From an uncultured Clostridia bacterium (GTDB lineage Bacteria; Bacillota; Clostridia; TANB77; CAG-508), in contig CAKOTZ010000001.1 in NCBI GenBank assembly GCA_934120395.1, positions 63,065 to 127,064 of the forward strand: a stretch of DNA of 64,000 nucleotides, in the 5' to 3' direction. The position numbers were made by a program, and so were the translations under genes. Below the pieces are notes generated by a model that did no database searches, was not told the DNA's origin, and saw only the letters and a list, made by a program, of their open reading frames with translations. Below are positions 27,501-47,847 of this stretch, piece after piece. The first letter of the stretch is position 1; every line of letters starts with the position of its first letter.

Positions 27501-29870
27501 GATGTAGTTATAAAAGACCAAATACCAAAGTGGACAACTTATGTACGTTCAATGTATGAAAAAAATAATTCCTATATGTTTTCTCAAGCATTTCCAATGA
27601 GCAATGCTGACAGTGCAACAATGAAGGAATGGAATGTAGTTGAAAATGGAAACTTAGAAACTGGAGCAACACCAAAACTAGAATGGCAAGTAGATCAAAT
27701 ACAACCAGGAGAAACAGTAACAAAAGAATTTGAAATTTTAACAAATGATGCGCCAGATCTATATACATACTATAAGGATTATCCTGGATTTACTATGGAT
27801 GAAGATGGAAAGTGCTATATTATAACTCAAACTTATGATGTAAATACAGATAGTTCAACAGAAAAGAAAAACGAATTAACAACAGTACCAGATATAGACA
27901 TACAAAACATTGCAACAGTAACGGCAGGGAACTTTTTGGCAGAATTAAAAGCAGAATCTGCAAATGTAACATTAAATAAGTCAGATATACAAATAGAAGA
28001 AACCATGATGGGTGCTGATAATGATGGATGTATAGAAGCAGATGATCAAATAACTATTAACATAGTAGCAATAAATAAGACTAAAAATGAAGTTAAGAAT
28101 GTTACAATCGAAAAAACTTTGCCAGAAGGTTTAAGCTACGTAAGTGGTGGAATAAACCAAATAAACGATGAAACAGGGGAAAATAACCAAATATCTGCGA
28201 CCTATGATAAAAACACAGGTAAAATTACTGCAACAAAGGATGTAATGGAAGCTAATGGAGCAGTAACAATGACAATAGTTGTTAAAGCAAAAAGCTTAGA
28301 AGATGGTGTATATGAAAAAGAAATAAAAACAAATTCTAAGATAATGGCAGATGGATACGAAGGAAATAAAACAAACGAATTAACAATTACTGTTCAAAAA
28401 CCACAATTGGTTGTTAGTCAATACTGTAGTAATAGCAGTGAATACTTAAAAGAAGGCGATGAAGTAGATTATACAATTACTGTAGAAAATAAGGGAAAAA
28501 CAACAGTAAAAGATTTGCACGTAAAACAAAACATATCTGATGTGTTTAAATTTGTAAAAGCAAGCTATACACTATATGGAGTAAAGTCGAATGCAAATAT
28601 GAACAAAAACAGAGATGTTAGTATTACAGGAAGCCTAAAAGCTGGTGAAACTCTTGAGTTAGTAATAAGAGTTAAGGTGCTAGCAAATACAGAGGACAAA
28701 GCAATAGTAAACATAGCAGAAGTTTATGGAACAAATACAGACTATATAATTACAGACGGAATTCATCAATTAATAGAAAAATCAAACAATAACAATAATA
28801 ACAGTGGAGGCAATAATAACAATAACAACAATGGAAATACAACAACAGATAATGGAAACCGTATTTCGGGCTTAGCGTGGCTAGATGAAAATGAAAATGG
28901 AAAACGAGATAACCAAGAAAGTACACTAGGAGGAATTAATGTTGTTGCGATTGATAGTAACACAGGAAATGTAGCAACAAAGAAAGATGGAACAGAAGCA
29001 AGAACAACAACCGATGACTCAGGACGTTATATAATAGAGAATTTAAAAGTGGGAAACTACATTATAGTATTCCTATATGATACACAAGTGTATACAGTAA
29101 CAAAATACCAAGCAAGTGATGCAGGAATTTTACTAGATTCTGATGCAATTGAAAGAGAAATAACACAAGATGGACAAACAAAATTTGCAGGTGTTACAGA
29201 TACAATAAAATTAGAAAGAAGTACTTCAAATATAGACTTAGGCTTAATTAGCAGAGAAAAATTTGATCTAAAATTAGATAAGTTTGTAACAAAAGTAAGT
29301 GTACAAAATAAAGAAGGTTTAAAAACACATGAATATAACGATACAACATTAGCAAAGGTGGATATTACAGGAAAACAACTTAAAAATTCTACAATAGTAA
29401 TAGAATATAAAATTAAAGTAACAAACGAAGGCAATGTAGCTGGCTATGCAAAAAGTTTAGTAGATTACTTGCCAAAAGAACTTAACTTTAATTCAGAATT
29501 AAACACAAACTGGTATGCAGGTAATGATGGACAATTATATACAAATGAACTTGCAAATCAAATAATAGAACCAGGACAAACAAAAGAGGTTAAATTAATT
29601 TTAACAAAAAAATTAACAGAAGATAGCACTGGAATAATAAACAATACAGCAGAAATTCAAGAAAGCTACAACGAACAGGGATTAAAAGATAAAGATTCAA
29701 CAGCAGGTAACAATGCACAAGGTGAAGACGACCAAGGTTCTGCTGACGTATTAATTACAGTACGAACAGGTGGAGTTATGATTATAGGTACAATTTTAGT
29801 AATAGCAATTGTAGCGTTAGTAATTGCAGGAGTATATATAATGCGTAAAAAAGGAATTTTGAAAAGGTAG
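24573..29870 (+). CDS. Giant type B cell-surface protein (about 1765 aa). Carries a signal peptide, DUF11/CARDB-like repeats, an Asn-rich linker, an SdrD-B/CnaB-like domain and a C-terminal DUF11-like module, and ends in VRTGG followed by a TM helix and basic tail
   Basis: Signal peptide MKLKGSSRR...LIASMLIVTLTSANF. DUF11-like stretches such as YKIKVTNDGTETAKDVVIKDQIP and YTITVENKGKTTVKDL. ISGLAWLDENENGKRDNQESTLGGINVVAIDSNTGN...DDSGRYIIENLKVGNYIIVF is SdrD-B-like. C-terminus LITVRTGGVMIIGTILVIAIVALVIAGVYIMRKKGILKR. Confidence 0.8.
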   Translation: MKLKGSSRRTENKLLTKLIASMLIVTLTSANFLFCGGYFVSYAESLKPAELDKQTEATLNKNVKFDAYFAEKDGNTHYKVADVNSDEVKLDLNLEVQKEGYLKNAIITLKTDNEESKLNYEVNEITDEASMVQKQDTNSIALRQVNKDETVKLQLNISPKLEETINKQSLNQTSKVILKATYMNAKGEETPIEKSVDINIGWTGEYEVENNIEVAKYIPLNTNGEEKVLLQLLVKTGRKEQKAMLPISNTELTMNIPTFNEVKAEKIEVSAKSTKATNGLEAEDVKFTKDNWSQNGEKQTITIKVDNKESDGKIKSGSGEDEYLVTLVYPKEAYDSIKTNPISIKTKISTKMQIYNNEDNKEFTKEEEKTLSLKEPIGKLLSLEGKNKTESIGKGKMYANINSEEKENQTEYEAIWQVNVGYKENLEGIRLEDGGEQVVSAYGQKYDISKYVRYKTTTVSKESFLDVLGEDGKIRVLNEEGRELGIVNKATKVDENGDFIITYYENVSKVILQTTAPIKEGNLVITQKKAITGSLSYSKTEIEAFSKLVVANNLYQKEKEAKDYLQTEQKQVEIPFEETKTKARLTISKDKLSTIVKNENVEFKIELGNNTDTSDLYIDPMFDIELPSYIEDIDIKEYKILYDEELVIKNVQKLQKDGKIILRVQLEGIQTKFSTGSVTNGTNIVLNTDIKVKILTPSKEDEIKMYYYNLNTKNYENLIQTENGLAGLTSLEISYAAPNGLISVSNWTKFDSTGRQVMSVNQGKVVEQIGVYSKAQLSKVDLILVNNTGNVCDGISVLGKIPHKGNKITVDGEELETTVDTNLRSAITAQGIDSSKIKVYYSENENATKDLSNANNNWKENIDDMTKIKSFLIVANDYQMPAGELITFSYNLEVPENMSYNNNIYSNFTTYYTENSKEVSLKQESKADVIGITTGKGPDLKIEQEVSGADENGQIKEYGILKYKIKVTNDGTETAKDVVIKDQIPKWTTYVRSMYEKNNSYMFSQAFPMSNADSATMKEWNVVENGNLETGATPKLEWQVDQIQPGETVTKEFEILTNDAPDLYTYYKDYPGFTMDEDGKCYIITQTYDVNTDSSTEKKNELTTVPDIDIQNIATVTAGNFLAELKAESANVTLNKSDIQIEETMMGADNDGCIEADDQITINIVAINKTKNEVKNVTIEKTLPEGLSYVSGGINQINDETGENNQISATYDKNTGKITATKDVMEANGAVTMTIVVKAKSLEDGVYEKEIKTNSKIMADGYEGNKTNELTITVQKPQLVVSQYCSNSSEYLKEGDEVDYTITVENKGKTTVKDLHVKQNISDVFKFVKASYTLYGVKSNANMNKNRDVSITGSLKAGETLELVIRVKVLANTEDKAIVNIAEVYGTNTDYIITDGIHQLIEKSNNNNNNSGGNNNNNNNGNTTTDNGNRISGLAWLDENENGKRDNQESTLGGINVVAIDSNTGNVATKKDGTEARTTTDDSGRYIIENLKVGNYIIVFLYDTQVYTVTKYQASDAGILLDSDAIEREITQDGQTKFAGVTDTIKLERSTSNIDLGLISREKFDLKLDKFVTKVSVQNKEGLKTHEYNDTTLAKVDITGKQLKNSTIVIEYKIKVTNEGNVAGYAKSLVDYLPKELNFNSELNTNWYAGNDGQLYTNELANQIIEPGQTKEVKLILTKKLTEDSTGIINNTAEIQESYNEQGLKDKDSTAGNNAQGEDDQGSADVLITVRTGGVMIIGTILVIAIVALVIAGVYIMRKKGILKR
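28783..28860 (+). repeat. Asn/Gly low-complexity linker (NNNNNSGGNNNNNNNGNTTTDNGN) encoded by aac/aat-rich DNA, lying just before the CnaB-like domain
   Basis: Direct reading. An analogous linker sits at about 42121-42190 in the paralog. Confidence 0.6.

Positions 29871-47847: not shown

What the first reader, a model, noticed from the sequence alone, without database searches (positions are those of the whole stretch)
29740..47847. Non-canonical C-terminal sorting signals on all six giant proteins
Every giant protein ends with a short motif, a TM helix of about 20 residues and a K/R tail, but none has LPxTG. Type B proteins end LITVATGN (position about 690), LITVRTGG (29745-29768) and LITIKTGS (43100-43125). 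Type A proteins end IIVTKPLGE (about 8120), IITPPTGQ (37665-37690) and IITPPTGE (47735-47760). The resulting consensus is [I/L]-[I/V]-T-x-x-[T/L]-G, against L-P-x-T-G for canonical sortase substrates. The only sortase in the window sits next to a canonical LPKTG substrate, so either a dedicated sortase encoded elsewhere processes these proteins or they stay membrane-anchored.
Basis: partly seen in the sequence, partly recalled or inferred. Interest (0 to 1): 0.75.

Follow-up and report, generated by a model that had tools for sequence, protein, structure and literature searches.

The report
Variant sortase-type anchors on giant adhesins
Six giant surface proteins of an uncultured gut Clostridia bacterium end in a conserved cell-wall-anchor-like signal whose usual Leu-Pro is replaced, a variant shared by over a thousand related protein clusters but never shown to be cut by any sortase.

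Summary
All six giant ORFs end with a short motif, about 20 hydrophobic residues and a K/R tail. None has LPxTG.

The six are three tandem B-A gene pairs of a cassette that is widespread in uncultured gut Clostridia.

- **B-type signal:** [S/T/G]-[V/I/L]-x-T-G. T-G is present in 83 of 83 distinct genomic C-termini and in nearly all of 150 representatives clustered at 50% identity. Internal copies of the same Ig-like domain, which are not followed by a membrane helix, lack TG. TG therefore belongs to a C-terminal signal, not to the fold.
- **A-type signal:** x-P-x-T-G, mostly TPPTG. About a quarter of A tails reach NCBI's LPXTG-anchor cut-off. In about a quarter, Thr is replaced, mostly by Phe (LPPFG clade) and by Leu in window A1.

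Best reading (about 0.55): these are variant LPXTG-class sorting signals cut by a sortase with relaxed specificity. The cognate enzyme is unidentified.

Main rival (about 0.3): permanent membrane anchoring. The closest described motif, C. difficile CbpA NVQTG, is not cleaved by SrtB in vitro.

It stops at LPKTGM, with no hydrophobic segment or charged tail.

I rate this a new variant of a known kind, of moderate interest.

The parts
2..799 (+). B1: 3' part of a B-type giant protein (runs off the window start). Sorting-signal-like C-terminus: pentapeptide TVATG at 674-688, hydrophobic segment 689-757, K/R tail 758-796.
801..8249 (+). A1: A-type giant protein (2482 aa, two VWA domains). C-terminus: TKPLG at 8118-8132 (Leu where the family usually has Thr), hydrophobic segment 8133-8204, tail 8205-8246. 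It is followed by SpoIIE (8485-10917), as in most related genomes.
24504..29870 (+). B2: B-type giant protein (1788 aa; four DUF11 stretches plus SdrD_B; the likely true start is the later Met of MKLKGSS). C-terminus: TVRTG at 29757-29771, hydrophobic segment 29772-29843, tail 29844-29867.
   Evidence: AlphaFold model.
29882..37781 (+). A2: A-type giant protein split into two ORFs (29882-30340 with the signal peptide; 30279-37781) by a one-base frame change near 30270-30300. C-terminus: TPPTG at 37668-37682, hydrophobic segment 37683-37754, tail 37755-37778.
37921..43218 (+). B3: B-type giant protein (1765 aa; DUF11 plus SdrD_B). C-terminus: TIKTG at 43105-43119, hydrophobic segment 43120-43188, tail 43189-43215.
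43225..47847 (+). A3: A-type giant protein (1540 aa; SdrD_B). C-terminus: TPPTG at 47734-47748, hydrophobic segment 47749-47823, tail 47824-47844. Its tail scores 18.2 bits within a 399-aa C-terminal query and 23.1 bits as a 48-aa tail on TIGR01167 LPXTG_anchor (cut-off 15.9).
55203..55754 (+). The only sortase in the window (183 aa). It has an N-terminal membrane segment, His (AAHNRG), Cys (TLITC) and Arg. It passes the general sortase model but no class model. Its closest solved relative is PDB 4d70. It is a candidate, unproven, processing enzyme.
55769..57286 (+). The sortase's neighbour: a thioester-domain/SpaA-fold protein ending ...ELPKTGM-stop, without a hydrophobic segment or charged tail. 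The same 505-aa length is seen in 7 of 8 cluster members.

Best explanation
The six proteins are secreted giant surface proteins (adhesin-like) encoded as three B-A gene pairs. They carry two conserved variants of the LPXTG-class cell-wall sorting signal.

**Proposed mechanism**
- Shown: each protein has a signal-peptide-like N-terminus.
- Inferred: each is exported by Sec and held in the membrane by its C-terminal hydrophobic segment and K/R tail.
- Inferred: a sortase cuts between the Thr and Gly of [S/T/G]-[V/I/L]-x-T-G (B) or x-P-x-T-G (A). It then transfers the Thr carboxyl to peptidoglycan, or possibly to a partner protein.
- Inferred: the sortase must tolerate Val/Ile in place of the canonical Pro and Ser/Thr in place of Leu.
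- The enzyme could be the unclassified sortase at 55203-55754 or one encoded elsewhere in the genome.

**Shown versus inferred**
- Shown: the architecture, the conservation of the motifs, and the restriction of TG to the domain copy that precedes the membrane helix.
- Inferred: the cleavage, the enzyme and the acceptor.
For: 1. The tripartite C-terminal signal is on all six proteins. A signal-peptide-like N-terminus is on the five whose N-termini lie in the window.
2. T-G is invariant in the B family: 48/48, 83/83 and nearly all of 150 representatives at 50% identity retrieved with a profile lacking the signal. The family has 1,275 representatives at E<=1e-30.
3. Control: 11 internal copies of the same domain in multi-repeat relatives run straight on as ...FDLxLxK without TG. 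The 142 terminal copies have TG (first 12 listed; tallied).
4. Rare B members carry Pro at the V/I position (APKTG, SPRTG, TPATG, VPPTG). That position therefore interchanges with the canonical Pro.
5. The A signal is x-P-x-T-G. A3 exceeds the curated TIGR01167 cut-off (18.2 and 23.1 bits against 15.9), A2 reaches 14.3 bits, and 20 of 77 A tails hit TIGR01167 at E<=0.015.
6. Precedent for one sortase accepting both a Val-containing and a Pro-Pro motif: S. pyogenes Spy0129 uses EVPTG (major pilin) and VPPTG (tip adhesin Cpa), with consensus (E/Q/V)(V/P)PTG (PMC3019223). [quoted passage not shown]
7. A catalytically complete sortase lies 7.4 kb downstream of A3. In L018, L020 and L052 another sortase lies directly downstream of the B-A pair.
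8. A and B tails share the same I-[K/N]-[K/R]-K-V-[L/I] cytoplasmic ending, which is consistent with one common handling system.
Against: 1. The nearest described motif without Pro, NVQTG of C. difficile CbpA, is not cleaved by that organism's only sortase in two independent in vitro studies, and CbpA is regarded as not a true substrate (PMC4155245, PMC4371152, PMC5569036). The last paper also reports at least one SPxTG protein, CD0183, that sortase does not process.
2. In the A family the cleavage-site Thr is replaced in about a quarter of members: Phe in 15 (14 LPPFG plus 1 misregistered), and Tyr, Asn and Glu in 1 each. Window A1 has Leu (TKPLG).
3. AlphaFold places the three residues that precede the Thr (T-V-R in B2) inside the last beta-strand. 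Only T-G lies between the strand and the helix, with no wall-spanning linker.
4. B tails are essentially unrecognised by curated sorting-signal models. Five of 61 hit TIGR01167 at E<=0.05, and the window B tails reach only 14-18 bits on Rumino_NPXTG, below its 23.5 cut-off.
5. There is no sortase within 10 kb in 76 of 79 loci. The L018-type sortase family has B or A neighbours in only 3 of 80 metagenome loci and elsewhere neighbours LPKTG/NPKTG-type proteins.
6. I could not inventory the genome's sortases.
Confidence: 0.55

Rival explanations
1. Permanent type I membrane anchoring. The C-terminal helix is simply a stop-transfer anchor and is never removed. T-G is a conserved hinge between the last beta-strand of the terminal Ig-like domain and the membrane helix. 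The proteins reach through the wall by sheer length (1,500-2,500 residues).
For: - The AlphaFold model has strand 165-175, T176-G177 as a two-residue turn, and helix 178-203, with no linker.
- Foldseek neighbours include integrin calf domains, which directly precede a membrane helix.
- NVQTG (CbpA) is not cleaved by C. difficile SrtB, and at least one SPxTG protein (CD0183) stays unprocessed.
- Thr is replaced by Phe, Leu or Tyr in part of the A family.
- There is no dedicated sortase next to the cassette.
- The helix itself has conserved features: Tyr about 5 residues after Gly, and G-x-G-x-Y near its end.
Against: - A hinge or helix cap would tolerate Ser, Asp or Asn. Instead Thr-Gly is invariant in more than 200 distinct B sequences, while neighbouring positions vary.
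- TG is absent from internal copies of the same domain.
- The variation seen at the V/I position includes Pro, giving LPXTG-like pentapeptides.
- The A signal reaches the curated LPXTG model cut-off.
- Motif, roughly 20 hydrophobic residues and a short basic tail at the extreme C-terminus is the sortase-substrate architecture (PMC8225981).
Confidence: 0.3
2. Pilus-like two-component assembly, a special case of sortase processing. The A protein (VWA domains in window A1; a thioester-like motif in A3 and most short-class relatives) is joined through its x-P-P-T-G Thr to a Lys of the B protein. B is then anchored to the wall through its [S/T]-[V/I]-x-T-G signal. This would parallel tip adhesin Cpa (VPPTG) and shaft pilin Spy0128 (EVPTG) in S. 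pyogenes.
For: - The B-A gene order is strict with almost no intergenic space, in the window and in 64 paired loci.
- The two partners carry two different signals, as in pilus operons (PMC3019223).
- The sorting motif abuts the last Ig-like domain without a linker. From my own knowledge, not checked here, this is typical of pilins.
- A1 has VWA domains.
- Short-class A N-termini (A3 and most relatives; absent in A1 and the long-class relatives examined, not examined in A2) have a conserved Cys and a Q-x-A-x-W motif reminiscent of thioester adhesins.
Against: - The VYPK 'pilin motif' look-alike in B2 and B3 is not conserved (1 of 69 family members).
- There is no class C sortase, and no sortase in the operon in 76 of 79 loci.
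- No E-box-like motif was found.
- Subunits of 1,500-2,500 residues are far larger than known pilins.
- The thioester idea has no support from Pfam, hhalign or PDB sequence searches, and the single-sequence model was unusable.
Confidence: 0.07
3. A different, undescribed processing or sorting system recognises the T-G plus helix plus I-K-K-K-V-L tail. Candidates are a rhomboid-type intramembrane protease that sheds the ectodomain, or an unknown transpeptidase.
For: - The signal is not matched at threshold by any curated sortase-signal model.
- Both families share a specific cytoplasmic tail motif.
- B lacks Pro altogether.
- The catalogue of C-terminal sorting domains is still growing; GVDTG, LAVTG and LPxTATN models appear among the weak hits.
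Against: - There is no conserved candidate enzyme gene next to the cassette. In the window and in about half of the related loci the downstream neighbour is SpoIIE, and in about half an upstream neighbour is a penicillin-binding-protein-like gene. The other genes between the pairs are housekeeping.
- From my own knowledge, not checked here, rhomboids prefer a small residue at the cleavage site, which leaves the invariant Thr unexplained.
- T-G is exactly the scissile pair of sortases.
Confidence: 0.08

Closest known systems
LPXTG cell-wall sorting signal of sortase substrates (NCBIfam TIGR01167 LPXTG_anchor)
   Same: - N-terminal signal peptide.
- Pentapeptide ending in T-G, about 20 hydrophobic residues, and a short K/R tail at the extreme C-terminus.
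- The A3 tail passes the curated cut-off, and 20 of 77 A tails hit at a comparable level.
   Different: - No Leu at the first position.
- The B type has no Pro at all; Val, Ile or Leu takes its place.
- B tails do not reach the model's cut-off.
- Part of the A family lacks the Thr.
- No linker precedes the motif.
Clostridioides difficile SrtB signals (S/P)PxTG, and the disputed NVQTG of CbpA (CD3145)
   Same: - A clostridial lineage with Ser or Pro instead of Leu at the first position.
- SPKTG differs from the common B form SIKTG only at the Pro.
- NVQTG has the same x-V-x-T-G form as the B type.
   Different: - SrtB cleaves (S/P)PxTG but not NVQTG in vitro.
- The window's sortase did not match the class B model.
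- The B-type signal is a family-wide invariant, not a single protein's oddity.
Streptococcus pyogenes FCT-2 pilus signals EVPTG/QVPTG (Spy0128) and VPPTG (Cpa), used by class B sortase Spy0129
   Same: - Val at the second position in one partner and Pro-Pro in the other.
- Both are accepted by one sortase, with consensus (E/Q/V)(V/P)PTG.
- The two differently signalled proteins are encoded together.
   Different: - The GAS motifs keep a Pro next to the Thr, which the B type does not.
- No conserved pilin-motif Lys was found.
- No sortase lies in the operon.
- The proteins are five to ten times larger than pilins.
Ruminococcus NPXTG-anchored proteins (NCBIfam NF033846)
   Same: It is the best-scoring curated signal model for B2 and B3 tails (14.1 and 18.3 bits). 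It is also a gut Firmicutes variant of the signal.
   Different: The scores are below the 23.5-bit cut-off. The motif has Asn-Pro where B has [S/T/G]-[V/I/L].

Membership tests
Sortase substrate (LPXTG-class cell-wall sorting signal) | N-terminal Sec signal peptide | tested here: met
   A basic n-region, a hydrophobic core and an Ala-x-Ala-like site are visible at the N-termini of A1, B2, A2 (small ORF), B3 and A3. The B1 N-terminus is off the window. This was read by eye from the sequence; no predictor was run.
Sortase substrate (LPXTG-class cell-wall sorting signal) | Pentapeptide L-P-x-T-G (or an accepted variant) 17-45 residues from the C-terminus | tested here: inconclusive
   - No LPxTG is present.
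- A2 and A3 have TPPTG, which is x-P-x-T-G.
- B1-B3 have T-[V/I]-x-T-G.
- A1 has TKPLG, with no Thr.
- The position is right: the motif Gly lies 32-38 residues from the C-terminus.
- Whether these variants are accepted by a sortase is unknown.
Sortase substrate (LPXTG-class cell-wall sorting signal) | Hydrophobic segment followed by a positively charged tail | tested here: met
   There are 23-25 residues of spacer plus hydrophobic segment, then tails of net charge +4 to +7. The same holds across 83 B and 77 A C-termini, with a median tail charge of +4.
Sortase substrate (LPXTG-class cell-wall sorting signal) | Score at or above the curated cut-off of TIGR01167 LPXTG_anchor (15.9 bits) | tested here: inconclusive
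   - A3: 18.2 and 23.1 bits (met).
- A2: 14.3 bits (just below).
- A1, B1, B2, B3: no hit.
- Family-wide: 20 of 77 A tails at E<=0.015; 5 of 61 B tails at E<=0.05.
Sortase substrate (LPXTG-class cell-wall sorting signal) | A sortase encoded in the same genome | tested here: met
   The sortase at 55203-55754 passes TIGR01076 (52.2 bits against a 39.35 cut-off) and has the His/Cys/Arg motifs. Its specificity is unknown. The rest of the genome could not be searched.
Sortase substrate (LPXTG-class cell-wall sorting signal) | Cleavage between Thr and Gly and amide linkage to peptidoglycan | not testable with these tools
   This needs biochemistry or proteomics.
C. difficile SrtB-type (S/P)PxTG substrates | Ser or Pro at the first position and Pro at the second position of the pentapeptide | tested here: not met
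   The window A type has Thr-Pro. The window B type has Thr-[Val/Ile]. In the wider B family Ser is the commonest first residue, but the second is Val/Ile/Leu in 78 of 83.
C. difficile SrtB-type (S/P)PxTG substrates | A class B sortase as the processing enzyme | tested here: not met
   The window's sortase did not match the class B model. Its best hits are class C (56.5 bits against a 160 cut-off) and the class D-specific SrtD model.
Sortase-assembled pilus subunits | Conserved pilin-motif lysine (WxxxVxVYPK) in the shaft subunit | tested here: not met
   VYPK is present in B2 (aa 349-352) and B3 (aa 334-337), but in only 1 of 69 full-length family members. The residues after the conserved strand are variable.
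Sortase-assembled pilus subunits | Pilus-specific (class C, or GAS-type class B) sortase encoded in the operon | tested here: not met
   There is no sortase within 10 kb in 76 of 79 loci. The three exceptions carry an unclassified sortase family that is not specific to the cassette.

The most novel reading that the evidence does not exclude
The invariant [S/T/G]-[V/I/L]-x-T-G signal defines a new sortase specificity class, or a new sorting enzyme, in uncultured gut Clostridia. The co-transcribed A (x-P-P-T-G) and B proteins are joined by it into a giant two-component surface fibre, a megadalton analogue of the Cpa/Spy0128 pilus arrangement. This would also explain why Pro-less motifs such as CbpA's NVQTG exist.
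Probability: 0.12. Interest if true: 0.7.

Novelty: new variant of a known kind. Interest (0 to 1): 0.48.

Why it matters
The B-A cassette is very common in uncultured gut Clostridia from humans, rabbits, chickens, mice and ruminants. A genome scan found at least 445 relatives, and there are 1,275 clusters at 50% identity with E<=1e-30.

Its products are probably dominant surface structures of these organisms. How they are held on the cell decides whether they act as wall-bound adhesins, membrane proteins or shed factors.

The B-type signal is not captured by current annotation models, so these proteins are not flagged as wall-anchored.

A sortase that accepts Val or Ile in place of Pro would extend known sortase specificity. 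It would give a concrete system for the unresolved question raised by C. difficile CbpA (NVQTG), and it could be useful for sortase-based protein ligation.

If the proteins are not cleaved, the family is a caution. A perfectly conserved T-G plus helix plus basic tail would then not be sufficient evidence for sortase anchoring.

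Tried and rejected
1. **Pilin-motif lysine.** VYPK occurs in B2 and B3 but is not conserved in the family. Rejected.
2. **Dedicated sortase next to the cassette.**
   - Only L018, L020 and L052 have a sortase within 10 kb.
   - That sortase family is widespread, with 431 metagenome relatives. B or A neighbours occur in only 3 of 80 loci. Elsewhere the neighbours are ELPKTG, ILPKTG, VLPKAG, NPKTG or NPYTG proteins.
   - It is a general sortase, not a dedicated one.
3. 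**TG as a feature of the Ig-like fold.** Rejected: internal copies of the domain lack it.
4. **Other processing enzymes near the pairs.** The window genes between them are SpoIIE, WG-repeat proteins, TatD, an M48 peptidase, LemA, an HtrA-like protease, RNase HII and pyrimidine nucleoside phosphorylase. None is specific to the cassette.
5. **Thioester domain at the A3 N-terminus.**
   - The motif resemblance has no support from Pfam on 21 members, from PDB profile and hhalign comparisons, or from NCBIfam.
   - The homologue search found only the protein itself.
   - Left untested.
6. **First attempt to scan genomes** with a 20-sequence alignment failed for lack of a conserved stretch. It was repeated with 8 sequences.
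7. **Literature search** for TPPTG, LPPFG, SIKTG and TVKTG found no description of these motifs. Only VPPTG in S. pyogenes turned up.
8. **Genome-wide sortase inventory** of this organism was not possible. The organism is known only from metagenome assemblies, and only 10 kb flanks can be fetched.

Full report
**1. What is in the window**

The window has about 29% G+C. It carries sporulation and housekeeping genes of a Clostridia-type organism: SpoIIE at 8485-10917, RuvA, and Spo0A just beyond the window end. Exact copies of its housekeeping proteins occur only in metagenome assemblies and carry no name. The organism is therefore uncultured.

The six giant ORFs form three tandem pairs on the + strand:
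- B1 (2-799, partial) with A1 (801-8249).
- B2 (24504-29870) with A2 (29882-30340 plus 30279-37781).
- B3 (37921-43218) with A3 (43225-47847).

B proteins carry four DUF11 stretches and an SdrD_B domain. A1 carries VWA domains and A3 an SdrD_B domain. Gaps within pairs are 1 to 15 bases.

**2. The observation**

| Protein | Pentapeptide | Coordinates |
|---|---|---|
| B1 | TVATG | 674-688 |
| A1 | TKPLG | 8118-8132 |
| B2 | TVRTG | 29757-29771 |
| A2 | TPPTG | 37668-37682 |
| B3 | TIKTG | 43105-43119 |
| A3 | TPPTG | 47734-47748 |

- Each pentapeptide is followed by 23-25 mostly hydrophobic residues and a tail of net charge +4 to +7.
- No LPxTG occurs anywhere in the six proteins.
- They are the only proteins in the window with this tripartite C-terminus. 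The three other ORFs the same scan flagged are two multi-pass membrane proteins (TauE, ABC-3 permease) and an uncalled reverse-strand ORF.
- The five N-termini that lie in the window all look like signal peptides.

**3. Is it more than paralogy?**

Within the window the three B proteins are paralogues (33-64% identity over the C-terminal domain). So are the three A proteins. I therefore looked outside the window.

*B family*
- A homologue search with the B2 C-terminal 299 residues returned 55 proteins at 30-65% identity.
- All 48 distinct C-termini among the hits that carry the signal have T-G at the same place.
- In a 20-sequence alignment, T and G are two of only ten invariant columns.
- A scan of one genome per species found at least 445 relatives. 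All of the 79 loci kept are from uncultured gut Clostridia-like MAGs of humans, rabbits, chickens, mice and ruminants.
- In these loci the B-A order is conserved. SpoIIE lies downstream in about half of them and a penicillin-binding-protein-like gene upstream in about half, the same setting as B1-A1 in the window.
- The 83 distinct B C-termini all carry T-G.
- The pentapeptide is [S45/T19/G17]-[V37/I32/L9/T5]-x (K in 56)-T-G.

*Wider B family*
- A profile of the B C-terminal domain, cut before the motif so that it could not favour it, found 2,567 representatives of 50%-identity clusters at E<=0.001. Of these, 1,275 have E<=1e-30.
- Among the best 150, essentially every complete C-terminus has T-G.
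- Four have Pro at the V/I position (APKTG, SPRTG, TPATG, VPPTG), and two have Leu for Thr.

*A family*
- The 77 distinct C-termini give x-P-x-T-G, most often TPPTG. Other forms are TPSTG, TPNTG, TEPTG, IPSTG and MPPTG.
- Gly is invariant.
- Thr is replaced in about a quarter: Phe in a coherent clade (LPPFG, about 15), and Tyr, Asn and Glu once each. Window A1 has Leu (TKPLG).
- In the LPPFG genomes the partner B protein keeps T-[V/I/L]-[K/R]-T-G or S-V-Q-T-G.

**4. Signal or fold?**

An AlphaFold model of the last 209 residues of B2 (20-sequence alignment, mean pLDDT 88.8) shows an Ig-like sandwich.
- Its last strand is QGSADVLITVR (residues 165-175).
- T176-G177 form a two-residue turn.
- Residues 178-203 form a helix.
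- Foldseek relates the domain to CARDB, complement MG and integrin calf domains.

That raised the possibility that TG is also a fold feature. A control argues against it. In multi-repeat relatives (P0097, P0134, P0231), 11 internal copies of the same domain run straight on as ...E-[K/Y]-[V/L]-K-[V/I]-x-[E/Y]-F-D-L-x-L-x-K into the next copy, without TG. The terminal copies, 142 in all, carry TG (first 12 listed; motif tallied across them). TG is therefore tied to the C-terminal helix, not to the fold.

**5. Comparison with curated signals**

Scores on the isolated 47-54-residue tails:
- A3: 23.1 bits on TIGR01167 LPXTG_anchor, cut-off 15.9 (18.2 bits in the longer query).
- A2: 14.3 bits on the same model.
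- B3 and B2: 18.3 and 14.1 bits on the Ruminococcus NPXTG model, cut-off 23.5.
- A1 and B1: no sorting-signal model matched.

Family-wide, 20 of 77 A tails hit TIGR01167 at E<=0.015. Only 5 of 61 B tails do so even at E<=0.05. The A signal is thus a marginal member of the known LPXTG class. The B signal is outside every curated model.

**6. Sortases**

*The window's sortase (55203-55754, 183 aa)*
- It has a membrane segment and His, Cys (TLITC) and Arg motifs.
- It passes the general sortase model but no class model.
- Its nearest solved relative is PDB 4d70, E = 3e-11. From memory, this is a C. perfringens class D sortase; the tool output names it only 'sortase family protein'.
- Its neighbour (55769-57286) has thioester (TED) and SpaA-fold hits and ends ELPKTGM-stop. 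Only non-coding sequence lies before the next gene.
- The same 505-residue length recurs in 7 of 8 cluster members.

*Other sortases*
- Among the 79 cassette loci, only L018, L020 and L052 have a sortase within 10 kb. It lies directly downstream of A.
- It is an unclassified enzyme of about 265 residues, 30% identical to the window's sortase.
- A metagenome scan showed that this family is common, with 431 relatives. Only 3 of 80 loci have B or A neighbours. Others have ELPKTG, ILPKTG, VLPKAG, NPKTG or NPYTG proteins nearby.
- It therefore looks like a general sortase. Its adjacency to the cassette is weak evidence.

**7. Literature**

- Sortase substrates are defined by a pentapeptide, a hydrophobic stretch and a charged tail. 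The classes use LPXTG, (N/S/P)PXTG, LPXTA or LAXTG (PMC8225981).
- C. difficile SrtB cleaves SPKTG, PPKTG, SPSTG and SPQTG between T and G. It does not cleave NVQTG of CbpA (PMC4155245; PMC4371152).
- CbpA is therefore regarded as not a true substrate, and at least one SPxTG protein (CD0183) is also left unprocessed (PMC5569036).
- S. pyogenes Spy0129 accepts EVPTG from the shaft pilin and VPPTG from the tip adhesin Cpa, with consensus (E/Q/V)(V/P)PTG (PMC3019223).
- No paper in the library mentions TPPTG, LPPFG, SIKTG or TVKTG as sorting motifs.

**8. Interpretation**

The weight of the evidence favours a genuine C-terminal sorting signal of the LPXTG class, in two variants. That evidence is:
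- invariant T-G, which is the scissile pair of sortases;
- restriction of TG to the terminal domain copy;
- occasional Pro at the V/I position;
- an x-P-x-T-G partner signal;
- the full tripartite architecture;
- a sortase in the neighbourhood.

I put this at about 0.55.

The main rival is permanent membrane anchoring with TG as a hinge, at about 0.3. It is supported by:
- the CbpA precedent;
- the position of the motif inside the last strand, with no linker;
- the Thr-to-Phe/Leu replacements in A proteins;
- the absence of a dedicated sortase.

A pilus-like A-to-B linkage (0.07) and an undescribed processing system (0.08) cannot be excluded. The first lost its most specific predicted feature: the VYPK motif in B2 and B3 is not conserved.

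**9. Novelty and limits**

This is a new variant of a known kind. The A signal is a near-canonical relative of LPXTG. The B signal, [S/T/G]-[V/I/L]-x-T-G, appears undescribed as a family-wide signal and is missed by current models.

No tool available here can show cleavage, and I could not inventory the genome's sortases. The decisive tests are listed under next steps: phylogenetic profiling of complete MAGs, peptide cleavage assays, and a metaproteomic search for the C-terminal peptides.

Noticed in passing
window 55769-57286 (+): The thioester-domain/SpaA-fold protein next to the sortase ends ...NIKELPKTGM-stop. It has no hydrophobic segment or charged tail, and only non-coding sequence lies before the next gene. 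The same 505-aa length occurs in 7 of 8 cluster members, so this is not a sequencing error. An LPxTG at the very C-terminus without a membrane anchor is unusual.
   Followed up: partly
window 29882-30340 and 30279-37781 (+), frame change near 30270-30300: The A2 gene is split. The signal-peptide-bearing 152-aa ORF and the 2500-aa ORF overlap in different frames. Related A genes (L006, L010) are intact. This is either a pseudogene or an assembly error in the metagenome-derived sequence.
   Followed up: partly
window about 43465-43467 (Cys81 of A3) and about 43741-43758 (VQQAFW); also A-type N-termini in L008, L009, L011, L013, L018, L020 and others: The short class of A proteins has a conserved Cys in [F/Y]-C-x-[E/Q]-x-G (91% of 67 sequences) and a [T/V]-Q-x-A-x-W motif (Trp in 90%). 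This is reminiscent of the Cys and Gln motifs of thioester adhesin domains. Pfam, hhalign and PDB sequence searches gave no support, and no usable structure model could be made.
   Followed up: partly
window 2-10917 compared with 24504-47847; loci L006-L084; L003: In about half of the related loci, as at B1-A1 in the window, a B-A cassette is followed by SpoIIE, and in about half a penicillin-binding-protein-like gene lies upstream. The window also has a second site with two tandem pairs (B2-A2-B3-A3) upstream of znuA and ruvA. In L003, which carries an identical sortase, the 1.7 kb of contig upstream of ruvA holds only a 184-aa gene instead of znuABC and the end of a giant gene. Copy number therefore varies between close relatives.
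   Followed up: partly
window B2 aa 349-352 (about 25548-25559) and B3 aa 334-337 (about 38920-38931): VYPK follows a conserved strand (E-Y-[I/L]-[V/I]-T-[L/Y]-V-Y-P-K) and resembles the pilin-motif lysine of Gram-positive pilins. The strand is conserved in the family. The P-K is not (1 of 69).
   Followed up: yes
C-terminal tails of A and B proteins, e.g. window 47824-47844 and 37755-37778; loci L006-L084: Both families often end with the same cytoplasmic pattern, I-[K/N]-[K/R]-K-V-[L/I]-x-K. A looser form occurs in 55 of 85 B tails and 51 of 77 A tails. The few sorting-signal tails seen next to the L018-type sortase end differently (for example YYNKKK). The A and B terminal domains also share the N-x-A-E-I ... 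G-N ... D-D pattern, so they are probably homologous.
   Followed up: partly
L018 15831-16625, L020 16915-17697, L052 20185 to end; L085-L164: An unclassified sortase family of about 265 aa has a strikingly conserved cytoplasmic N-terminus (MNQIL-x-TEK-x-YVTPELKRKRKLYKIEF). It is common in gut metagenomes, with 431 relatives. Its neighbours carry diverse signals: LPKTG, LPKAG, NPKTG, NPYTG and IS[IV]STG.
   Followed up: partly
P0230 (3266 aa) and P0234 (3386 aa), representatives: Two representatives contain the B terminal domain with its ...KTG or ...GTG motif in the middle of the protein (about residue 1370). P0230 ends with an A-type tail (RIMPNTG); P0234's end was not shown. These look like B-A fusions or merged gene calls.
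   Followed up: no
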